Assembly: GCA_042408785.1 (NCBI GenBank) | Contig: JBHOQU010000110.1 | Span: 2,691-66,690, forward strand | DNA length: 64,000 nt | Source: Dehalococcoidia bacterium | GTDB taxonomy: Bacteria > Chloroflexota > Dehalococcoidia > JAUQQI01 | Direction: 5' to 3' | Part shown: positions 7,702 through 60,504 of the stretch, one piece after another | Layout of the letters: each line of letters begins with the position of its first letter | Numbering within the stretch: the stretch's first letter is position 1 | Made by a program: the position numbers and the translations under genes | Notes under the pieces: generated by a model | The model's input: only the letters and a program-made list of their open reading frames with translations | Told to the model about the DNA's origin: nothing | Database searches by the model: none

Positions 7702-10029
7702 TTACTCCGGCCGGGACCGGCGGGCTTCGGCGATGGCCCGCAGGACCCTTTCGGGGGTGAGGGGCATATCGATGTGGCGCACGCCGAGGGGGGCAAGGGC
7801 GTCCACCACGGCGTTGACGACGGCCGGGGGCGCCCCAATGGTGCCGGCCTCGCCCACCCCCTTAACCCCGAGGGGGTTGTTAGGGGTGGGAGTCTCCGTC
7901 TTGTCGACAATAAAGGCCGGCAGGTCATCGGCCCGGGGGAGGGCGTAATCCATCAGACTGCCCGTAAGAAGCTGGCCGTTCTCATCGTAGGCAACCCTTT
8001 CCAGGAGGGCCTGGCCGATGCCCTGGGCCAAGCCCCCGTGAACCTGCCCCTCGACCAGCAGGGGATTGATCACCCGACCGCAGTCGTCCACCGCCACCAT
8101 TTTCTCCAGCCGAACCACCCCCGTTTCGGCGTCGACCCTGACCACCGCCACGTAAGCCCCGAAGGAGTAGCTTTCCTGGGGCGCCTGGAAATAGGCGGCG
8201 GCCTCCAGGCCGGGTTCGATGCCCGGGACCGGGGCCCGACTGTAGGCGGCCCGGGCCACCTGCTCGAGGGTTACCGCCCGCCCCGGGGCTCCCCGGACGA
8301 AGATTTTGCCGCCCTCATAGACCAGGTCCTCGGGGGCAGCCTCGAGCAGGTGGGCAGCCACCTGGAGGGCCTTCTGCTTTACCCGCTCGGCCGCCACCAC
8401 CAGGGCGCTGCCGGCCAGGGCCGCGCTCCGCGACCCGAAGGTGCCGATCCCCACCGGCACCACTGCCGTATCCCCGTAGCGCACCCGGATGTTTTCGATG
8501 GGCACCCCAAGCTGGTCGGCCACCAGCTGGGCGAAGGTGGTCTCGTGGCCCTGGCCGTGGGGCACCGCGCCGGTCAGAACCGTTACCCGGCCGCTGGGCT
8601 CGACCCGGACGACCCCGCTCTCCCAGCCCTGGGCCGAAAGTTCCACGTAGGTTGCCAGGCCGATGCCTAGACATTCGCCCCGCTCCCGGGCCCGGGCCTG
8701 TTCCCGACGGAGGTCGTCATAGCCCACCAGCTCCAGGGCCCGGTCCAGGGCGGCCTCGTAGTTGCCGCTGTCGTAGACCACCCCGGTGGCCGTGCGGTAT
8801 GGGAACTGCTCCGGCCGGATGAAGTTTCGACGTCGGACCTCCGCCGGGTCGAGTCCCAGCTCCCGGGCCACCGTATCCATCAGCCGCTCGGCGACGAAGG
8901 CCGCCTCGGGCCGCCCGGCCCCCCGGTAGGGCCCGGTGGGAATCGTGTTCGTGAAGACGGTCGTCACCCGGCTCCGAACGTTAGGGATATCGTAGGCGCC
9001 GACGCAGTAGACCGGGGTCCGGAGGGGCGGCATGGCCGTGCTCAACTGGAGAAAGGCGCCCAGGTTGTAGATGCTTTCGACCTTGAGGCCTAGCACCCGG
9101 CCGTCGGCGGTAACGGCCGCCTCGACGTAGTCCACCTCCTCCCGGGCCTGCATGGTGCTCAGGAGGTCCTCACTTCGGGTTGCCACCCAGCGCACCGGGC
9201 GGCCCAGCATCCGGGCCAGGTGGGCGGTGAGCACCTCCTCCCGGTAAGCACAGCCTTTCGACCCGAACCCGCCCCCCACATCCGGGGCGATAACCCGGAC
9301 CCGGTGGTCCGGGATGCCCAGGACGGTCGCCAGGGCGCTGCGAACGTTGTAAACCGACTGGGTGGAGACCCAGACGGTAAGCTCGCCGGCGGCCGGGTCA
9401 TAGGCGGCCAGGACTCCCCTGGGCTCCATGGCCACGGCCGCGATACGGGAGTGGGCAATCTTAAGGCGAACGACCCGGTCGGCCCGGGCGAAGGCCGCCT
9501 CTACATCCCCGCCCTCCCGGCCGAAGGTATAGGCGACGTTGGTGCCGAGCTCCGGGTGGACCAGGGGCGCGCCCGGCTTTAGGGCCTCTTCCGGGTCGAC
9601 CACGGCCGGGCCGGGCTCATATTCGGCGTCGATCAGCTCTAAGGCGTCCCGGGCCAGGGCCGGGGTTTCGGCCGCCACCGCCGCGACGGGCTCCCCAACG
9701 GCCCGAACCCGGTCCCGGGCAAGCAGGGGGTGGGGCGGGACCCGCATCCCCCCCACCACCCGGTTGACGGGCATCTCCCCCAGCCCGGCCACATCTTCGC
9801 CGGTTAAAACCGCCACGACCCCCGGCAGGGCCCGGGCCCGGGAGACATCCAGCCGGCGGATGTGGGCACTGGCATACGGGCTCCGAAGAAAGGCGACGAA
9901 AAGGGTGCCGGGAAGCCGGATGTCGGCCACGTACCGGGCCGCGCCAGTGATGAACCTGGGGTCCTCAACCCGCTTGGTGGGGGCGCCGATCAGCCTGCCG
10001 GCGGCGGTGACCATGCTCCAGGCCTCCAA
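7702..10029 (-). CDS. xanthine dehydrogenase / aldehyde oxidase family molybdopterin-binding large subunit
   Basis: 775 aa; N-terminal a/b-hammerhead (KRVEDPRFITGAARYVADIRLPG) and Mo-binding domains. Confidence 0.8.
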   Translation of the reverse strand: MEAWSMVTAAGRLIGAPTKRVEDPRFITGAARYVADIRLPGTLFVAFLRSPYASAHIRRLDVSRARALPGVVAVLTGEDVAGLGEMPVNRVVGGMRVPPHPLLARDRVRAVGEPVAAVAAETPALARDALELIDAEYEPGPAVVDPEEALKPGAPLVHPELGTNVAYTFGREGGDVEAAFARADRVVRLKIAHSRIAAVAMEPRGVLAAYDPAAGELTVWVSTQSVYNVRSALATVLGIPDHRVRVIAPDVGGGFGSKGCAYREEVLTAHLARMLGRPVRWVATRSEDLLSTMQAREEVDYVEAAVTADGRVLGLKVESIYNLGAFLQLSTAMPPLRTPVYCVGAYDIPNVRSRVTTVFTNTIPTGPYRGAGRPEAAFVAERLMDTVARELGLDPAEVRRRNFIRPEQFPYRTATGVVYDSGNYEAALDRALELVGYDDLRREQARARERGECLGIGLATYVELSAQGWESGVVRVEPSGRVTVLTGAVPHGQGHETTFAQLVADQLGVPIENIRVRYGDTAVVPVGIGTFGSRSAALAGSALVVAAERVKQKALQVAAHLLEAAPEDLVYEGGKIFVRGAPGRAVTLEQVARAAYSRAPVPGIEPGLEAAAYFQAPQESYSFGAYVAVVRVDAETGVVRLEKMVAVDDCGRVINPLLVEGQVHGGLAQGIGQALLERVAYDENGQLLTGSLMDYALPRADDLPAFIVDKTETPTPNNPLGVKGVGEAGTIGAPPAVVNAVVDALAPLGVRHIDMPLTPERVLRAIAEARRSRPE

Positions 10030-23134: not shown

Positions 23135-24525
23135 TTGGCCTGGTCTTCCCAGGTCGCGGCCGCTGAACCGAGCCCGGCGGACCTGGCCCTGGCCGTGGAC
23201 ACCGTCTGGGTGCTGGTGGCCGGCGTCCTGGTCATCTTTATGCAGGCGGGCTTTGCCCTCCTGGAGGCCGGACTCACCCGGACCAAGAACGCCGCCCACG
23301 TCGCGGCCAAGAACCTGCTCATCCTGGCGGTGGCCTCCCTCGCCTTCTGGGCCTTCGGCGCCGGCAACCCCATCTTCGGAACCTCCGGCTTCTTCATGGC
23401 GGTCCCGGCCGAGGAGGCCGATAGGGTCTTCGCCTCCCTGGCGGCCTCGGTCGTTCCCATTCCGGCAAAATATATCTTCCAGGTCGCCTTCTGCGCCGTG
23501 TCTTTGGCCATCGTCTGGGGCGGGATGGCCGAGCGGACCCGCCTCATCGTCTACCCCATCTTCGGCCTCATCTTCAGCACCCTGATCTACCCGGTCACCG
23601 CCCACTGGGTCTGGGGTGGGGGCTGGCTGGCCGGGCTGGGGATGCAGGACTTCGCCGGCTCAACCGTCGTCCACCTTCAGGGGGGAACGGCCGCCCTCAT
23701 CGGCGCCTGGCTGCTCGGCCCCAGGCTGGGCAAATACGGGCCGGACGGGCGGCCCAATCCCATCCCCGGCCACAACCTGGCCTACGCCGTTCTGGGAACC
23801 TTCATCCTCTGGCTCGGCTGGTTCGGGTTCAACCCGGGCTCAACCCTGGCGGCGGTTGGGGCCTTCTTTGCCTACGTTGCCCTGACGACCCACCTGGCCG
23901 CGGCGGCCGGGGCCCTCTCGGGCCTCTTCGGCGCCTGGGTTTTCCTGGGCAAGCCGGATATACCCATGATGCTGAACGGGGTGCTGGCCGCCCTGGTGGC
24001 CATCACCGCCGCCTGCGCCTACGTGGAGCCGTGGGCGGCGGTGGTTATCGGCGCCTGGTTGCCGGCCTGGTGATGCTCTTCACCGTCCGCCTGGTGGAAA
24101 CCCGGCTGAAGGCGGACGACCCCGTTGGGGCCTTCGGGGTCCACGGGATGGCCGGGATCTGGGGCACCCTGTCCACCGGCCTCTTCGCCGCGCCCCACCT
24201 GGTGAGCCAGCTGGGCATCGGCCAGCCGGGCCTCTTCTACGGCGGCGGCCTGACCCAGCTGGGGGTCCAGGCGCTGGGGGTTGCGGCCGCCTTTGTTTAC
24301 GTTGCGGCCGCCTCGTTTGTAAGCCTTTACGTAATCAGGCGGGTCATCGGCCTGCGGGTTGCCCCCCAGGACGAGGTGGAGGGGCTGGACCTGGCCGAGC
24401 ACGGGACCGAAGGCTATCCGGAGCTGGCCCGGGGCCAGCTCCGGCCGCCCTCGGAAGTGGTGGTTATTCGCTCGCCGGAATTGGGGTGCACAATCCCGAC
24501 TTTAAAGGGGGCCTGGCCGACTTAA
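23135..24525 (+). pseudogene. amt: ammonium transporter (Amt family) interrupted by a 1-nt frameshift near 24052..24060
   Basis: ORF 23135..24073 encodes Amt TM1-9 and ORF 24031..24525 (other frame) encodes the Amt C-terminus (DDPVGAFGVHGMAGIWGTL); the joined reading AAVVIGA|LVAGLVMLF needs one extra base. Confidence 0.6.
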
Positions 24526-50412: not shown

Positions 50413-50901
50413 GTGAGGTCGGCCCTGAACCGCTACTCCTTGTTCTGGGCGGCCGGACTTATCGCCGGCATCGGGGTTTTTGCCAACCTGGTGGCCGGCC
50501 CGAGCCCGGCCCGGGTGCTGGTTCCGGCCGGGCTGCTCCTTCTGCTGGCCGCCTACTACCGGGTGATGCGGACCGGGCCCGGCCGAGTCACGGCCGCCGA
50601 AATCGAGGGCCGGCTCCGGTCCGGCCGGCCGACCCTGGTCGAGGTTTATTCGGATTACTGACTGATGTGCCTTACGGTGAAGCCCGTCGTCGACGGGCTC
50701 GAACGGGAGCTGGCCGGCCGGGCCCAGGTCTTGCGGGTGAACGTGGCCGAACCGGTCGGGCGGGAGCTTTTCTCCCGGTGGAACCTGGAAGTGGTGCCCA
50801 CGCTCCTAGTCTTCGACGGCGCCGGCCGGGAGGTCTACCGGGCCACCGGCTTCCCCGACCGGGGGGCGCTCTTGAGGGCCCTGAATGTTCAGTCCACGTG
50901 A
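50413..50901 (+). CDS. membrane-anchored thioredoxin-fold protein with in-frame TGA (50659..50661) at the first Cys of the CxxC motif; candidate selenoprotein (U-L-M-C)
   Basis: ORFs 50413..50661 and 50665..50901 share a frame and are separated only by TGA; joined product aligns to thioredoxin (VEVYSDY-U-LMC ~ FWAEW-C-GPC; VVPTLLVFDG ~ IPTLLLFKNG); hairpin 50682..50698 downstream. Confidence 0.5.
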
Positions 50902-54527: not shown

Positions 54528-56903
54528 TCAGGGCGGCCGGAGGCGGAAGACCCAAACCCCGGCCTGGTGGTAGACGGGCTCAAATTCCGGGCGGCCCAGG
54601 AGCTTCCCGGCCGTGAGGGGGCCGCCCCGCCGGCCGATAAACACGTAGTCGACCTTTAAGGCCCGGAGCTCGGGGATAAGCCGTCCCCAGTCGGCCGGGC
54701 CGGCGGCCAGCTCCCGGGCAATCCGGTTCCGCCGGGCAAACTCCTCGGCCGGCAGGTTCCCGTAAAGGAGGGTGGGCAGAAGGGTGGTCCGGCCGGCCGC
54801 GGCCGGAAGCCAGAAGCCGGCGTCGGCCCCGGCGTAGAACCCCGGCCGCCACTGGAACCCGTTGATTAGAAACCCGGCGTCCGGGGGCGTGTTCGCCCGG
54901 ACCCAGACCAGGGCCGGCAGGTCGGCCGGATGGACCAGCACCAGCTCCGGGTTAACGGCGGCCAGCTGACGGCCCACCTGCGAACAGCAGGCCACCAGCA
55001 CCAGGGTCCCCACGGCCGGCAGGCCGACCTTGCCCCCCAGTCGGACCCGGTCCAGAAGCCAGGCTACGGCCGCCCCGGCCGGCGCCAGGGCGGCCAGCCA
55101 GAGGGAGGCGGCCACGGTTACCCCGTCGACGACGTTGGGGAGGGGCGATGGGACGGGCAGGGCACCGGCCAGAAACCCGAGGCCCAGAAGAGTGAGGCCG
55201 AGGGCCAGCGCATCGGACCGGGCCCGCCTTATGCCGGCAAGCAGGGCCCCCAGGGCCAGGAGGAAGACGGCCCCGTCGGGCCAGCGGGCCACGAGGTCCC
55301 AGGGGAAAGGCTCGGAGTCTGGGCCAGCCTGGAGGCTGGCCCGGACGGCCGGAAGCAGAAACCGGCCGGCGGCCAGGCCGAGCCAGGGGAGGGCCGGAAG
55401 AAAGCCCCCCAGGGCCAGCATAAGCCTCGCCCCCAGCCGGGAGTGGGGGCCTGCGCCCTTCCAGGAAAAGGCGGTGAGCAGTAACAAAAAGAGGCCCGCC
55501 ATCACCAGCAGCCGGTAGTGGGTCAGGGCCAGGCCGGCCAGAAGGATGCCCCCGGCGCCGGCGGCCCGGTCGGAGCGGACCCAGTCCCGGCCGGCCAGGA
55601 GGACGGCCGGCAGGAGGTCAAGGCCGGCGGCCAGGCTGAACCGGCTCCACGAAAGCAGATAGCCGGGGAAGGTCAGGATCAGCCCGGCCAAGCCGGCCCC
55701 CACCAGCCCGGCCCGGGCATCGGCCGCCCACTCCCGGACCAGCCAGCAGGCCAGGACCGCCGACCAGGCGCTCAGGAGCTGTCCGGCCAGGCCGATGGCC
55801 CCGGCCGGCTCTGCGCCGGTTATCCGGGCGATGAAGGCGGCGTGGACGTGGAACCCGAAATGGTAAAAGGCCGGGATCTTCACCTCGGGGCCGTAAGAAT
55901 CGGGGACCCGGTTGGCCTCGAGAATCTTTCGGGTGATCAGGGCGTGATGGGGCCCGTCAACCCAGGGGGTAAGGGCCAAGTCGCCGAGGGGATAAAGCCT
56001 GACCAGGAGGGTAAGGATCAGGACCGCCCCGAGGAAAAGCCCCTCAGCCGGGTCCGGGGCGGTTCCTGGCGGCCTAAAGGACCGGCCTCGGCGGACGGCG
56101 GCCGCCCCCGCCAGCCCCACCCCGAGGCCCAGGCCGGCCTCAAATGCCGGAAGACCGCGCACACCGGCCCAGTAATAAACCAGGGGCCAGAAAGCCAGGC
56201 TGAAGCTGCTGCCGGCGGCCAGCCGCCCCGTAAGGCCCGGTGTTTCGGGCCAGCCCAGGAGGGCCGAGATGCCCAGGCCGGGCAGGAGCCAGAGGCCGAC
56301 TGCCATGGCCGCGGCCGGAATATCGTTGAAGCTCCCGGCAACGGCTGTGACCAGCCGGCCCGGGTCGGGCCGGTAGTAGGCCCGGAAACGCAGACTTCCC
56401 GGGACGGGAACCCCGTCCGCCGCAAGTTGGCCTTCCGGGTAGGGGTCGTCCCCGGCGGCCGCCACAAGGCCCGGGGGGAGCGGTTCCCCGCCGGCGGCCG
56501 CCACCAGCCGGTAGGGTCGACCCGCCGAAGCGGGCTGGGCCGCAAACCTGAGGGAGACAGCGGTCGGCCCCGAGGGCCCCCCGAGGGCGACGGGGACCGA
56601 GGCCAGCTCCCGGCCGTCTGCTTCGGCCGCCAGCCGAACCGTGAGGGTCTGGCCCGGTCTTCCGGCTCCCGGATTGACCAAGATGTCCACCCCGGCCAGG
56701 CCGTCCCGCCCGGGGGTGAAGGTCTGCTCCAGGCGTCGGACGGTCGGGACTTCCGGGAGCCAGCGGTCGGCCCGAACCTGCCAGGCGAAGGGGTCCGGGA
56801 TTTCGGTGAGGCCAGCCTGGAGGGCTAAGACTCCGGCGGCCAGCACGCCGGCCCAGACTGCCCAGCGGCCGAGGGTTTTAAGGGCCGGGGTGGGGCGGGG
56901 CAT
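54528..56903 (-). CDS. large polytopic membrane protein (about 790 aa) with N- and C-terminal extracytoplasmic domains; possible GT-C-type glycosyltransferase
   Basis: Ten or more TM helices; no recognisable catalytic motif by eye; lies next to sugar-nucleotide genes. Confidence 0.45.
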   Translation of the reverse strand: MPRPTPALKTLGRWAVWAGVLAAGVLALQAGLTEIPDPFAWQVRADRWLPEVPTVRRLEQTFTPGRDGLAGVDILVNPGAGRPGQTLTVRLAAEADGRELASVPVALGGPSGPTAVSLRFAAQPASAGRPYRLVAAAGGEPLPPGLVAAAGDDPYPEGQLAADGVPVPGSLRFRAYYRPDPGRLVTAVAGSFNDIPAAAMAVGLWLLPGLGISALLGWPETPGLTGRLAAGSSFSLAFWPLVYYWAGVRGLPAFEAGLGLGVGLAGAAAVRRGRSFRPPGTAPDPAEGLFLGAVLILTLLVRLYPLGDLALTPWVDGPHHALITRKILEANRVPDSYGPEVKIPAFYHFGFHVHAAFIARITGAEPAGAIGLAGQLLSAWSAVLACWLVREWAADARAGLVGAGLAGLILTFPGYLLSWSRFSLAAGLDLLPAVLLAGRDWVRSDRAAGAGGILLAGLALTHYRLLVMAGLFLLLLTAFSWKGAGPHSRLGARLMLALGGFLPALPWLGLAAGRFLLPAVRASLQAGPDSEPFPWDLVARWPDGAVFLLALGALLAGIRRARSDALALGLTLLGLGFLAGALPVPSPLPNVVDGVTVAASLWLAALAPAGAAVAWLLDRVRLGGKVGLPAVGTLVLVACCSQVGRQLAAVNPELVLVHPADLPALVWVRANTPPDAGFLINGFQWRPGFYAGADAGFWLPAAAGRTTLLPTLLYGNLPAEEFARRNRIARELAAGPADWGRLIPELRALKVDYVFIGRRGGPLTAGKLLGRPEFEPVYHQAGVWVFRLRPP

Positions 56904-59454: not shown

Positions 59455-60504
59455 TCAGACCCGCGCCCGCCAGTAGTTGAGCAGGTCCAATAGCGTCTGT
59501 TCGAAGGGAATCCGGGGCTCCCAGCCGGTGGCCTGGCGGAACTTGGTGACGTCGGCCTGAAGGATTTTAACGTCGGAGGGCCGAAGCCGGGCTGGGTCCT
59601 GCCGGACCTCGATCTTGACCTCGGTAAAGGACAGCAGGATGTTAAGCACGTCGCCCACCGCCCGGGCAACCCCGCTGCCGATGTTATAAACCTCCCCCGG
59701 CTCACACTTTTCCAGCGCCAGCCAGTACGCCCGAACCATGTCCCGGACGTCGACCCAGTCCCGCTTCGAGGAGAGGTCGCCCACCAGGATAACCGGGGGG
59801 CGTTTGCCGGCCTCGATTTCGGCAATCTGTTTGGCAAAGTTGCTGGTCACCAGGACGTGGCCCCGGCGGGGACCGGTGTGGTTAAAGCCCCGGGTGACGA
59901 TATTTTTAAGGCCAAAGCTGCGGAAATACTGGTAGGCCAGCATCTCCTGGGTGACTTTGCTTACGGCGTAGGGGCTTAAGGGGCGGAGGGGATTGGTCTC
60001 CTTTATGGGCAGCTCCTCGGGCTTTACGTAGCCGTACTCCTCCGAGGAGCCGGCGATGTGGATGCGGGGGTCCAGTTTCTCCCGCCGGACCGCCTCGAAT
60101 ATGTTGAGCTGCATGAGGGCGTTAAGGCGGATGGTCTCGGCCGGGGCGTTCCAGGAGGTGGGCACAAAGCTCTGGGCGGCCAGGTGGAAGATACGGTCGG
60201 GGCGGACGGCGGCGATGATGTTGTGGGTGGAGAAGGGGTCGGTCCAGTCGGCCTCGATGAGATTCAGGACGCCCGGCCTGGCCTGCTCCTCGACGAGCCT
60301 CCGGACGACGTCGGGGCTGTGGAGGTTTCCGCCTTCGGCGATGAAGTTGAGCCGCCCGCAGGCCTGAAGCTCGGCCAGATTCTCCAGCCGGCTCCGCCAG
60401 CGGTAGGTGCCGAAGACGATAAGATTGGGGTTTTCCACCAGGTATTCGGCCAGGTGGCTCCCGGCCATTCCGGTCACACCCGTAATCAGAACCCGCAATG
60501 CCAA
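59455..60504 (-). CDS. GDP-mannose 4,6-dehydratase-family SDR (Gmd-like)
   Basis: VLITGVTGMAGSHL; YAVSK catalytic motif; clustered with ManC and an Rmd-like gene. Confidence 0.65.
   Translation of the reverse strand: MALRVLITGVTGMAGSHLAEYLVENPNLIVFGTYRWRSRLENLAELQACGRLNFIAEGGNLHSPDVVRRLVEEQARPGVLNLIEADWTDPFSTHNIIAAVRPDRIFHLAAQSFVPTSWNAPAETIRLNALMQLNIFEAVRREKLDPRIHIAGSSEEYGYVKPEELPIKETNPLRPLSPYAVSKVTQEMLAYQYFRSFGLKNIVTRGFNHTGPRRGHVLVTSNFAKQIAEIEAGKRPPVILVGDLSSKRDWVDVRDMVRAYWLALEKCEPGEVYNIGSGVARAVGDVLNILLSFTEVKIEVRQDPARLRPSDVKILQADVTKFRQATGWEPRIPFEQTLLDLLNYWRARV

What the first reader, a model, noticed from the sequence alone, without database searches (positions are those of the whole stretch)
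50413..50901. Candidate selenoprotein: membrane-anchored thioredoxin-fold protein with TGA at the first CxxC cysteine
Two annotated ORFs (50413..50661 and 50665..50901) are in the same frame and are separated by exactly one codon, TGA at 50659..50661. The concatenated product is a coherent protein: an N-terminal TM helix followed by a thioredoxin fold. The TGA falls exactly where thioredoxins carry the nucleophilic Cys: ...TLVEVYSDY-[TGA]-L-M-C-LTVKP... versus Trx ...LVDFWAEW-C-G-P-C-K.... Downstream, VVPTLLVFDGAGREVYRATG aligns with the Trx cis-Pro loop GIPTLLLFKNGEVAATKVG. A U-x-x-C redox motif is the most common selenoprotein architecture. A hairpin GCCCGTC-gtc-GACGGGC (50682..50698), with G and U in its loop, starts about 20 nt after the UGA, which is the right zone for a bacterial SECIS element. 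The alternatives are a Cys-to-stop mutation or a sequencing error in an ordinary thioredoxin-like gene.
Basis: partly seen in the sequence, partly recalled or inferred. Interest (0 to 1): 0.75.

Follow-up and report, generated by a model that had tools for sequence, protein, structure and literature searches.

The report
Membrane-anchored thioredoxin selenoprotein gene (UxxC)
The two small "genes" at 50413-50901 are almost certainly one gene for a membrane-tethered thioredoxin-like enzyme whose catalytic residue is selenocysteine, encoded by an in-frame UGA; this is a real but fairly ordinary kind of bacterial selenoprotein that annotation pipelines routinely cut in two.

Summary
An in-frame TGA (50659-50661) sits exactly where homologues and solved thioredoxins carry the nucleophilic Cys of CxxC. 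The same TGA is kept in four other species of the same Chloroflexota/Dehalococcoidia lineage (78-90% aa identity), in a 99.7% strain variant, and in eight more distant, non-identical Anaerolineae-type sequences. Both halves are under purifying selection (dN/dS 0.10-0.40). An 8-bp hairpin with a G-U-N loop starts 19 nt after the UGA (loop at +27) and meets the published bacterial SECIS consensus. Synonymous variation is suppressed over it. Three of its 8 pairs show compensatory double changes, and three Cys-form homologues lack it. A syntenic relative carries a tRNA-Sec (Rfam 79 bits) 8 kb away. selA, selB and selD could not be checked for this genome. About 70% of the best family representatives in public protein sets are ~75-aa fragments that begin just after this codon, so the family is widely mis-annotated. 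UxxC thioredoxin-fold selenoproteins are a well-known kind and Dehalococcoidia are known to be selenoprotein-rich, so this is a new member of a known kind. No curated NCBIfam model covers this subfamily. Function beyond "thiol/selenol-disulfide oxidoreductase at the membrane" and the topology remain inferred.

The parts
50413..50901 (+). Complete selenoprotein gene: GTG start, 162 codons including UGA-Sec at codon 83, true stop TGA at 50899-50901. It lies 6 nt after the DUF1786 gene and just before the 4HBT thioesterase gene.
   Evidence: orthologues read through at the same codon
50440..50493 (+). Predicted transmembrane helix 1 (aa ~10-27), preceded by the family motif N-x-Y-S
   Evidence: hydropathy scan; family alignment; AlphaFold model of Cys homologue P0271 has helices 9-27 and 32-52
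50515..50559 (+). Predicted transmembrane helix 2 (aa ~35-49)
50611..50871 (+). Thioredoxin-fold domain (aa 67-153), which spans the UGA
   Evidence: Pfam PF00085, 33 bits, E=6e-8; PDB thioredoxin alignments; model and Foldseek
50659..50661 (+). UGA read as selenocysteine (U83), the attacking residue of the U-L-M-C redox motif
   Evidence: aligned to the first Cys of CxxC; conserved as TGA in 13 distinct relatives
50668..50670 (+). TGC, resolving cysteine C86 of UxxC (invariant in the family)
   Evidence: invariant column in alignments A1 and A7
50681..50699 (+). Bacterial SECIS-type hairpin: 8-bp stem (A-GCCCGUC / GACGGGC-U) and apical loop G-U-C at 50689-50691. The stem starts 19 nt after the UGA and the loop 27 nt after it. 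It overlaps the codons for K-P-V-V-D-G-L.
   Evidence: 97% of cells paired, 3 of 8 pairs with compensatory changes, 0 of 500 shuffles reach the covariation score; consensus from PMC13188914
50797..50799 (+). CCC, the cis-proline of the thioredoxin active-site loop (P129, invariant)
   Evidence: invariant in A1 and A7

Best explanation
50413-50901 is one gene for a 162-residue selenoprotein: two N-terminal membrane helices followed by a classical thioredoxin domain with active site U83-L-M-C86.

Inferred from the established bacterial Sec pathway: during translation, SelB carrying GTP and Sec-tRNA(Sec) binds the hairpin at 50681-50699, which lies in the mRNA 19-40 nt downstream. It delivers selenocysteine to the UGA in competition with release factor 2. 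When decoding fails, an 82-residue membrane peptide is released.

Inferred from the family: the mature enzyme is a membrane-tethered thiol/selenol-disulfide oxidoreductase. The selenolate of U83, at the N-terminal tip of the active-site helix, attacks a substrate disulfide or another oxidised sulfur or selenium species. C86 then resolves the mixed bond into an intramolecular selenenylsulfide, which an unidentified reductant recycles.

Shown here: the single domain is split by the UGA; the codon is a Sec/Cys pair across homologues; the UGA is conserved under purifying selection; there is a covarying SECIS-like hairpin; and there is a tRNA-Sec in the lineage. Inferred only: actual Se insertion, substrate, redox partner, and which side of the membrane the domain faces.
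For: (a) The TGA column holds Cys in 24 of 25 full-length homologues with the same NxYS, TM and Trx architecture. It aligns to the first Cys of WCGPC in solved thioredoxins.
(b) The TGA is retained in 4 other species of the lineage (L003-L006, 78-90% identity), in a strain variant (L001), and in 8 distinct Anaerolineae-type sequences (L008, L010, L011, L013, L014, L015, L017, L022).
(c) dN/dS is 0.10-0.40 for both the N- and C-terminal halves, with dS up to 0.87.
(d) Pfam PF00085 matches across the stop. In the AlphaFold model of Cys homologue P0271 (pLDDT 92.5), strand beta1 (encoded upstream of the TGA in the window) and the active-site helix belong to one Trx domain. The best PDB matches are classical thioredoxins.
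(e) Hairpin: synonymous variation is suppressed in codons 84-106 (5 of 20 sites vary, against 56 of 89 elsewhere, p=0.003). 97% of cells pair, against 21-44% when the partner is slid. Three of 8 pairs have double changes (G-C to A-U twice, C-G to U-A), and 0 of 500 shuffles reach the covariation score. In the window's clade it is more stable than synonymous-codon resampling predicts (p=0.01-0.04). Sec forms encode Arg as AGG with Pro as CCT, which keeps the stem (L015, L022), whereas Cys form L021 encodes the same PVVDR with CGC, which breaks it. Cys forms pair only 4-5 of 8 at these columns.
(f) The hairpin meets the published bSECIS constraints: 3-9 nt loop, 4-16 bp stem, G in the first two loop positions (G[G|U]N), and 16-37 nt from UGA to loop (PMC13188914).
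(g) tRNA-Sec (anticodon UCA, G73 discriminator, 6-bp D-stem, long variable arm; Rfam RF01852 at 79.2 bits against 47) lies on the syntenic contig L005.
(h) Dehalococcoidia MAGs are among the ten most selenoprotein-rich bacteria in BSepDB (PMC13326102).
(i) TGA is the commonest ordinary stop in the window, so it is not a reassigned codon.
Against: No selA, selB, selD or tRNA-Sec is in the 64-kb window, and the rest of this genome could not be searched. The tRNA-Sec evidence comes from a relative, not from this organism. Part of the hairpin is forced by the conserved peptide KPVVDGL: resampled controls still average about -8 kcal/mol, and in the Anaerolineae clade the excess stability is not significant (p=0.03-0.29). 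Folding the 81-nt region as a whole is no better than shuffles (z=0.33). The Cys-form control has only three sequences, one of which has an unrelated strong hairpin nearby. The covariation rests on 13 related sequences. There is no protein-level evidence of selenium.
Confidence: 0.9

Rival explanations
1. Pseudogene: an ordinary Cys-containing membrane thioredoxin that suffered a TGC/TGT to TGA nonsense mutation and is decaying.
For: A single-base change from a Cys codon gives TGA, and Cys-form homologues exist.
Against: The same TGA is kept across lineages separated by dS up to 0.87, and at only ~50% aa identity in Anaerolineae. There are no frameshifts or further stops, and dN/dS is 0.10-0.40 in the part downstream of the stop as well as upstream. 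A dead gene would not keep its 3' half under selection.
Confidence: 0.02
2. Sequencing or assembly error in an ordinary thioredoxin-like gene.
For: None beyond prior plausibility for a metagenome-derived sequence.
Against: An identical TGA is found in two separate Logan assemblies from different runs, one a strain with 21 differences over 7.9 kb, and in MAGs from unrelated studies.
Confidence: 0.005
3. Two genuine small genes: an 82-aa membrane peptide and a separately initiated 78-aa thioredoxin fragment.
For: Gene callers annotate them this way, and an ATG lies two codons after the TGA in the window.
Against: The first in-frame start after the TGA is not conserved: it falls at +2, +5 or +26 codons, as ATG, TTG or GTG, with no Shine-Dalgarno sequence. 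In most lineages the fragment would lack both redox residues. The TGA cuts between strand beta1 and the active-site helix of a single domain. Full-length Cys forms show the two parts are one protein.
Confidence: 0.02
4. The UGA is read through but not as selenocysteine, for example as Cys by a Sec-like tRNA or under selenium limitation, or as Trp by near-cognate suppression or a variant genetic code.
For: The sequence data show recoding, not the chemical identity of the inserted residue. One AT-rich homologue (P0046) is recorded with W at this column, probably a code-4 gene call. That Cys can replace Sec on tRNA-Sec when selenium is scarce is my own background knowledge, not tested here.
Against: TGA is the main ordinary stop codon in this window, so there is no code change. 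The tRNA in the relative is a canonical tRNA-Sec by Rfam and has a G73 discriminator. The hairpin matches the SelB-type SECIS consensus. Trp at the nucleophile position would give a dead enzyme, yet the gene is under selection.
Confidence: 0.04

Closest known systems
Sec-containing thioredoxin (Trx selenoprotein; PF00085, UxxC; e.g. Treponema denticola, Geobacter, Carboxydothermus; Zhang et al. 2006 PMC1794560; list in PMC13188914)
   Same: Thioredoxin fold, Sec at the first (attacking) position of UxxC, Cys-containing homologues, SECIS hairpin just downstream in the coding region. The window protein passes the PF00085 gathering score, and its modelled homologue superposes best on classical thioredoxins.
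   Different: It has an N-terminal membrane anchor (two TM helices here, one in the Anaerolineae forms) and the family motif NxYS. The active-site dipeptide is L-M, S-A, S-S or P-P rather than G-P. It scores far below the TrxA equivalog cutoff (TIGR01068: 40 against 96.8 bits). It is found mainly in Chloroflexota.
"Thiol:disulfide interchange protein" selenoprotein family (PF13098, UxxC; Kryukov & Gladyshev 2004, as listed in PMC13188914)
   Same: UxxC motif in a Trx-like domain. The C-terminal fragments of this family carry precomputed PF13098 hits, and JGI names several of them thiol-disulfide isomerase.
   Different: The joined window protein reaches only 18.1 bits on PF13098 (cutoff 27). 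I could not obtain the reference sequence WP_011366075.1 to compare directly, so whether they are the same family is untested.
Membrane-tethered Trx-like oxidoreductases of the cell envelope (DsbD gamma domain, ResA, CcmG/DsbE, TlpA)
   Same: A Trx domain held at the membrane. There are weak sequence and structure matches to DsbD-gamma. Most two-TM relatives have a positively charged inter-helix loop, which predicts an extracytoplasmic Trx domain.
   Different: No model of these families is reached (DsbD 21.7 against 330 bits; dsbE 18.9 against 123 bits). The fold lacks the TlpA/ResA insertion and matches plain thioredoxins better. The charge distribution in the window's own clade predicts the opposite orientation. 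No ccdA/dsbD-type partner is nearby.
Bacterial SECIS elements (E. coli fdhF type; consensus model in PMC13188914)
   Same: A stem-loop within the coding sequence directly 3' of the UGA, with G-U at the start of the apical loop, an 8-bp upper stem, and the loop 27 nt from the UGA, inside the 16-37 nt range.
   Different: The apical loop is minimal at 3 nt (7 nt in L022), there is no evident bulged U, and the loop lies a few nucleotides further from the UGA than I recall for fdhF (background knowledge, not tested). No Rfam family matches it.

Membership tests
Bacterial selenoprotein gene (UGA-Sec plus bSECIS) | In-frame UGA at a position occupied by Cys in homologues (a Sec/Cys pair) | tested here: met
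   Cys in 24 of 25 full-length homologues; Cys codons TGC, TGT, TGC in L019-L021; aligned to the first Cys of WCGPC in PDB thioredoxins
Bacterial selenoprotein gene (UGA-Sec plus bSECIS) | UGA and both flanking coding parts conserved in orthologues under purifying selection | tested here: met
   13 distinct relatives with TGA; dN/dS 0.10-0.40 in both halves
Bacterial selenoprotein gene (UGA-Sec plus bSECIS) | SECIS stem-loop downstream: 3-9 nt loop, 4-16 bp stem, G in the first two loop positions, 16-37 nt from the UGA | tested here: met
   8-bp stem, G-U-N loop, 27 nt spacing, gap-free register in 13 sequences, covariation at 3 of 8 pairs; consensus quoted from PMC13188914
Bacterial selenoprotein gene (UGA-Sec plus bSECIS) | Sec machinery (selC tRNA-Sec, selA, selB, selD) in the same genome | tested here: inconclusive
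   None in the window. tRNA-Sec lies on the syntenic contig of a 78%-identical relative. selA, selB and selD could not be searched in this genome. The lineage is known to use Sec.
Bacterial selenoprotein gene (UGA-Sec plus bSECIS) | Selenium actually incorporated at the UGA | not testable with these tools
   Needs 75Se labelling or mass spectrometry
Thioredoxin family (Pfam PF00085) | Score above the Pfam gathering threshold | tested here: met
   33 bits against 23.5, residues 67-153, with U83 replaced by C
Thioredoxin family (Pfam PF00085) | Trx fold with CxxC/UxxC at the N-terminus of the active-site helix, and a cis-Pro loop | tested here: met
   Model of Cys homologue P0271, pLDDT 92.5: strand 75-80, C84 and C87, helix 85-100; invariant P129; Foldseek top hits are thioredoxins, TM 0.71-0.86 on target length
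Thioredoxin TrxA equivalog (TIGR01068 / NF006898) | Score above the curated cutoff; WCGPC active site | tested here: not met
   40.4 bits against 96.8 and 22.1 against 138; the motif is Y-U-L-M-C
Curated NCBIfam Trx-like selenoprotein families (SaoT NF040730, HUIPC NF047660, TsoB NF045694, DsbG-like NF041057) | Hit above the model cutoff | tested here: not met
   Only TsoB appears, at 18-21 bits against 805, and only for relatives; the others give no hit at E<=0.01
Thiol:disulfide interchange protein selenoprotein (PF13098, UxxC) | PF13098 domain with UxxC; homology to the reference sequence WP_011366075.1 | tested here: inconclusive
   PF13098 at 18.1 bits against 27 for the joined protein; weak precomputed PF13098 hits on many fragments; reference sequence not available for comparison
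DsbE/CcmG/TlpA/ResA envelope thiol-disulfide oxidoreductases | Score above the family cutoffs; Trx fold with the characteristic insertion; extracytoplasmic domain | tested here: not met
   TIGR00385 at 18.9 bits against 123; the fold matches plain thioredoxins best; the topology prediction is contradictory

The most novel reading that the evidence does not exclude
This may be a distinct, so far uncatalogued selenoprotein family centred on Chloroflexota: a membrane-tethered thioredoxin that is Sec-containing in most of its members. Its SECIS would be written into, and co-evolve with, the conserved KPxVDxLE segment of the active-site helix, so that RNA pairing dictates amino-acid and codon choice (Arg as AGG, Val to Ile coupled with GAC to GAT). 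If the domain faces outward, as the charge pattern of most relatives suggests, it would be an extracytoplasmic selenol oxidoreductase in a largely single-membrane phylum.
Probability: 0.3. Interest if true: 0.45.

Novelty: new member of a known kind. Interest (0 to 1): 0.3.

Why it matters
It corrects an annotation: one 162-aa redox enzyme in place of two hypothetical mini-proteins. It also shows the same error is systematic. About 105 of the 150 best cluster representatives and all 120 best indexed hits are ~75-aa fragments that start just after the Sec codon, and NCBI and JGI label them as short "thioredoxin family protein". Recognising the family adds a widespread member to the selenoproteomes of Dehalococcoidia and Anaerolineae. 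It also offers a compact, well-conserved SECIS example in which the constraints of protein coding and RNA structure can be separated. It does not change how Sec decoding or thioredoxin chemistry is understood.

Tried and rejected
(1) The search for homologous proteins with the joined protein gave nothing; a profile of fragments was needed.
(2) The exhaustive search and the structure tool refuse the joined sequence or one containing a stop. I therefore searched with the C-terminal half and modelled a Cys homologue instead.
(3) The search for related loci with alignments failed for lack of a conserved 7-10 column stretch.
(4) A first hand-typed DNA pattern had a miscounted run of N and matched nothing.
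(5) Rfam gave no hit for the hairpin or the region at gathering or permissive thresholds. No bacterial SECIS family matched; the low-scoring hits there are noise.
(6) Folding the 81-nt stretch as a whole is no more stable than shuffles (z=0.33). Only the local hairpin, tested by covariation and codon resampling, is informative in this 69% GC sequence.
(7) Looked for Sec machinery among the window's genes with Pfam in six batches and in L005: none. The adjacent in-frame ORF pair at 59457 (-) is two ordinary genes, GDP-mannose dehydratase and phosphomannomutase.
(8) The positive-inside analysis did not settle topology.
(9) Mukai et al. 2017 (PMC5424206) was checked as a possible source for a UGA-to-Cys rival and proved irrelevant.
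(10) BSepDB supplementary tables are not held, so I could not check whether this subfamily is already listed there.

Full report
**1. The observation**

The sequence is as described. ORF 50413..50661 ends in TGA at 50659-50661. The same frame continues CTG ATG TGC and stays open to a TGA at 50899-50901. Both parts have the codon-position composition of real genes in this 68.6% GC window (GC3 0.87 and 0.90).

With Cys in place of the stop, the 162-residue product matches Pfam Thioredoxin PF00085 above threshold over residues 67-153, that is across the stop. phmmer against the PDB aligns "vysdyClmC" with "fwapwCgpC" of solved thioredoxins, so the TGA lies on the nucleophilic Cys. Window-wide scans for in-frame TGA with coding signal on both sides give no other credible site. 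TGA is the commonest normal stop here (26 of 48).

**2. Relatives**

An exhaustive HMMER search with the C-terminal half found 535 relatives. About 105 of the best 150 representatives are proteins of 66-105 aa whose first residues align to query positions 1-19. They begin just after the TGA position ("MCL..", "MGCL..", "MAKP..", "VDGLE.."). About 30 of the other hits, of 113-180 aa, share this gene's architecture, and the rest are longer or multidomain proteins.

The full-length forms share the architecture: the NxYS motif, one or two TM helices, then "..YSxY-C-xx-C-xxxKPxVDxLE..". In the alignment the TGA column is Cys in 24 of 25. A profile search of the indexed collection gave 749 hits. The best 120 were all 68-89 aa, and the few that carry an organism name come from Anaerolineae or Chloroflexi MAGs, where NCBI labels them "thioredoxin family protein" or "hypothetical protein". 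Matching 82-aa N-terminal fragments also exist.

**3. DNA of relatives**

- Four species-representative genomes keep TGA at the same codon, with everything else in frame: Chloroflexota ERB_22_2, Dehalococcoidia H24_334 and H81_820, and Chloroflexota QQ.bins.59, at 78-90% identity.
- Two Logan assemblies also carry it, one a 99.74% strain variant.
- Pairwise dN/dS is 0.10-0.40 for the part before and the part after the TGA, with dS up to 0.87.
- Eight further distinct sequences of the single-TM Anaerolineae type (about 50% identity in the C-terminal half) all read "..YS[ND]x-TGA-xxC-L[LM][AS]KP..".
- The first possible start codon after the TGA varies (+2, +5, +26 codons) and has no ribosome-binding site.

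These data exclude a sequencing error, a decaying pseudogene, and two independent genes.

**4. The RNA element**

In 13 non-identical sequences the 75 nt after the UGA align without gaps. Columns 23-30 pair with 34-41 (window 50681-50688 with 50692-50699) around a loop G-U-N.

- Among the five closest species, synonymous sites vary in 5 of 20 codons between 84 and 106, against 56 of 89 elsewhere (Fisher p=0.003).
- Across all 13 sequences, 97.1% of cells form pairs, against 21-44% when the 3' partner is slid by 1-3 columns.
- Three of the 8 pairs carry double changes, and 0 of 500 shuffles reach the covariation score.

The double changes are instructive:
- AAG..CTC to AAA..TTA (L008).
- Val-GTC..GAC to Ile-ATC..GAT (L014, L017).
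- Pro-CCC..Gly-GGG to Pro-CCT..Arg-AGG (L015, L022).

Cys-form L021 encodes the same PVVDR with Arg as CGC, which breaks the stem. The three Cys-form genes I could read pair only 4-5 of 8 at these columns. Resampling synonymous codons from each locus's own usage shows the core hairpin is more stable than the peptide alone dictates in the window's clade (p=0.01-0.04). The effect is weaker in Anaerolineae (p=0.03-0.29).

The element fits the published bSECIS model: 3-9 nt loop, 4-16 bp stem, G[G|U]N at the start of the loop, and 16-37 nt from the UGA (PMC13188914). Here these are 3 nt, 8 bp, G-U-C and 27 nt.

**5. Sec machinery**

The window has no tRNA genes, no Rfam hits and no sel genes. Contig L005 comes from a 78%-identical relative with the same gene order: DUF1786, this gene, 4HBT thioesterase, HAD, a PLP enzyme, M20 peptidase. 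It carries a tRNA-Sec 8 kb downstream (ARAGORN; Rfam RF01852, 79.2 bits against 47). That tRNA has anticodon UCA, a G73 discriminator, a 6-bp D-stem and a long variable arm.

Published work reports selenoproteins in Chloroflexi (PMC1794560) and Sec formate dehydrogenases in Dehalococcoidia single cells (PMC5736913). It also places two Dehalococcoidia MAGs among the ten bacteria with the most selenoprotein genes (PMC13326102). selA, selB and selD in this particular genome remain unchecked.

**6. What the protein is**

An AlphaFold model of the closest traceable Cys homologue (P0271; pLDDT 92.5, pTM 0.84) has two long helices (9-27, 32-52) and then a helix, strand 75-80, helix 85-100, strand, helix, two strands and a final helix. 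C84 and C87 sit at the N-terminal tip of helix 85-100. Foldseek places the domain with classical thioredoxins (rmsd about 2 Å, TM 0.71-0.86 on target length), followed by DsbD-gamma.

In the window, strand beta1 ("PTLVEVY") is encoded before the TGA and the active-site helix after it, so neither ORF can fold alone. NCBIfam has no model that reaches its cutoff: thioredoxin TIGR01068 scores 40 against 96.8 bits, and no curated selenoprotein family hits.

**7. Mechanism**

Inferred from the established bacterial Sec pathway and thioredoxin chemistry: SelB with Sec-tRNA(Sec) is recruited by the hairpin and inserts Sec at codon 83. The selenolate attacks an oxidised substrate, C86 resolves the bond to a selenenylsulfide, and a reductant regenerates the enzyme.

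The partner and the topology are open. Seventeen of 25 two-TM relatives have a strongly positive inter-helix loop, which puts the Trx domain outside. The window's clade has the opposite charge pattern. In Anaerolineae the gene lies next to, or a few kb from, a CsoR-like repressor, an AhpF-N-like Trx_3 protein, a thioredoxin-reductase-like flavoprotein and a ferredoxin, which would fit a cytoplasmic reductant.

**8. Comparison and novelty**

UxxC Trx-fold selenoproteins (Trx, thiol:disulfide interchange protein, DsbA-like, Prx-like and others) have been catalogued since 2004-2006. This gene is a member of that kind.

Not documented in anything I could search:
- this membrane-anchored subfamily itself;
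- its dominance of Sec forms in Chloroflexota;
- its consistent truncation in public annotation.

I could not check BSepDB's tables.

**Verdict**

This is a genuine selenoprotein gene (confidence about 0.9). It is a new member of a known kind, of modest interest (0.3).

Noticed in passing
window 23135-24525 (+): An ammonium transporter gene (PF00909) is split into two overlapping ORFs, 23135..24073 (profile positions 1-282) and 24031..24525 (282-399). This looks like a frameshift: a pseudogene or an assembly indel.
   Followed up: no
L005 9355-9451 (-): A canonical tRNA-Sec (anticodon UCA, Rfam 79.2 bits) sits between an ABC-transporter ATPase gene and a zinc-type alcohol dehydrogenase gene, not next to selA or selB.
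   Followed up: yes
L010 4328-6650; L011 4300-6308; L013 4395-6609; L022 2633-5623; L017 8564-11301: There is a recurrent redox cluster near the Anaerolineae Sec-Trx genes: a CsoR-like repressor (PF02583), a ~215-aa Thioredoxin_3/AhpF-N-like protein, a ~330-aa Pyr_redox_2 flavoprotein and a small ferredoxin. In L017/L018 the flavoprotein gene overlaps the start of the Sec-Trx gene by 4 nt, and a 348-aa multi-thioredoxin protein follows. This is a possible redox partner.
   Followed up: partly
protein P0046: A 166-aa homologue from an AT-rich organism has Trp at the Sec/Cys column (..QSEY-W-IAC..). This is most simply a TGA translated under genetic code 4 by the gene caller, that is another Sec form.
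   Followed up: no
window 54528-56903 (-): A 791-aa ORF has a strong coding signal but no Pfam domain at E<=1e-5. It is conserved in strain L001.
   Followed up: no
L005 1056-1140 (+): ARAGORN reports a 'tRNA-???' with a two-base anticodon inside the N-terminal coding part of the Sec-Trx gene. Rfam does not confirm it at gathering threshold, so it is probably spurious.
   Followed up: partly
window 7702-10029 (-): A xanthine-dehydrogenase-family molybdenum hydroxylase large subunit (PF02738, PF20256). Some enzymes of this family use a labile selenium cofactor (my own background knowledge), which would be a second selenium-dependent trait. Nothing here tests it.
   Followed up: no
window 50413-50559 versus family members: The charge distribution around the two TM helices in the window's clade (N-terminus +2, loop 0-1, after TM2 +3) is the reverse of most two-TM relatives, whose loop carries +2 to +6. 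The predicted orientation of the thioredoxin domain therefore differs within one family.
   Followed up: partly
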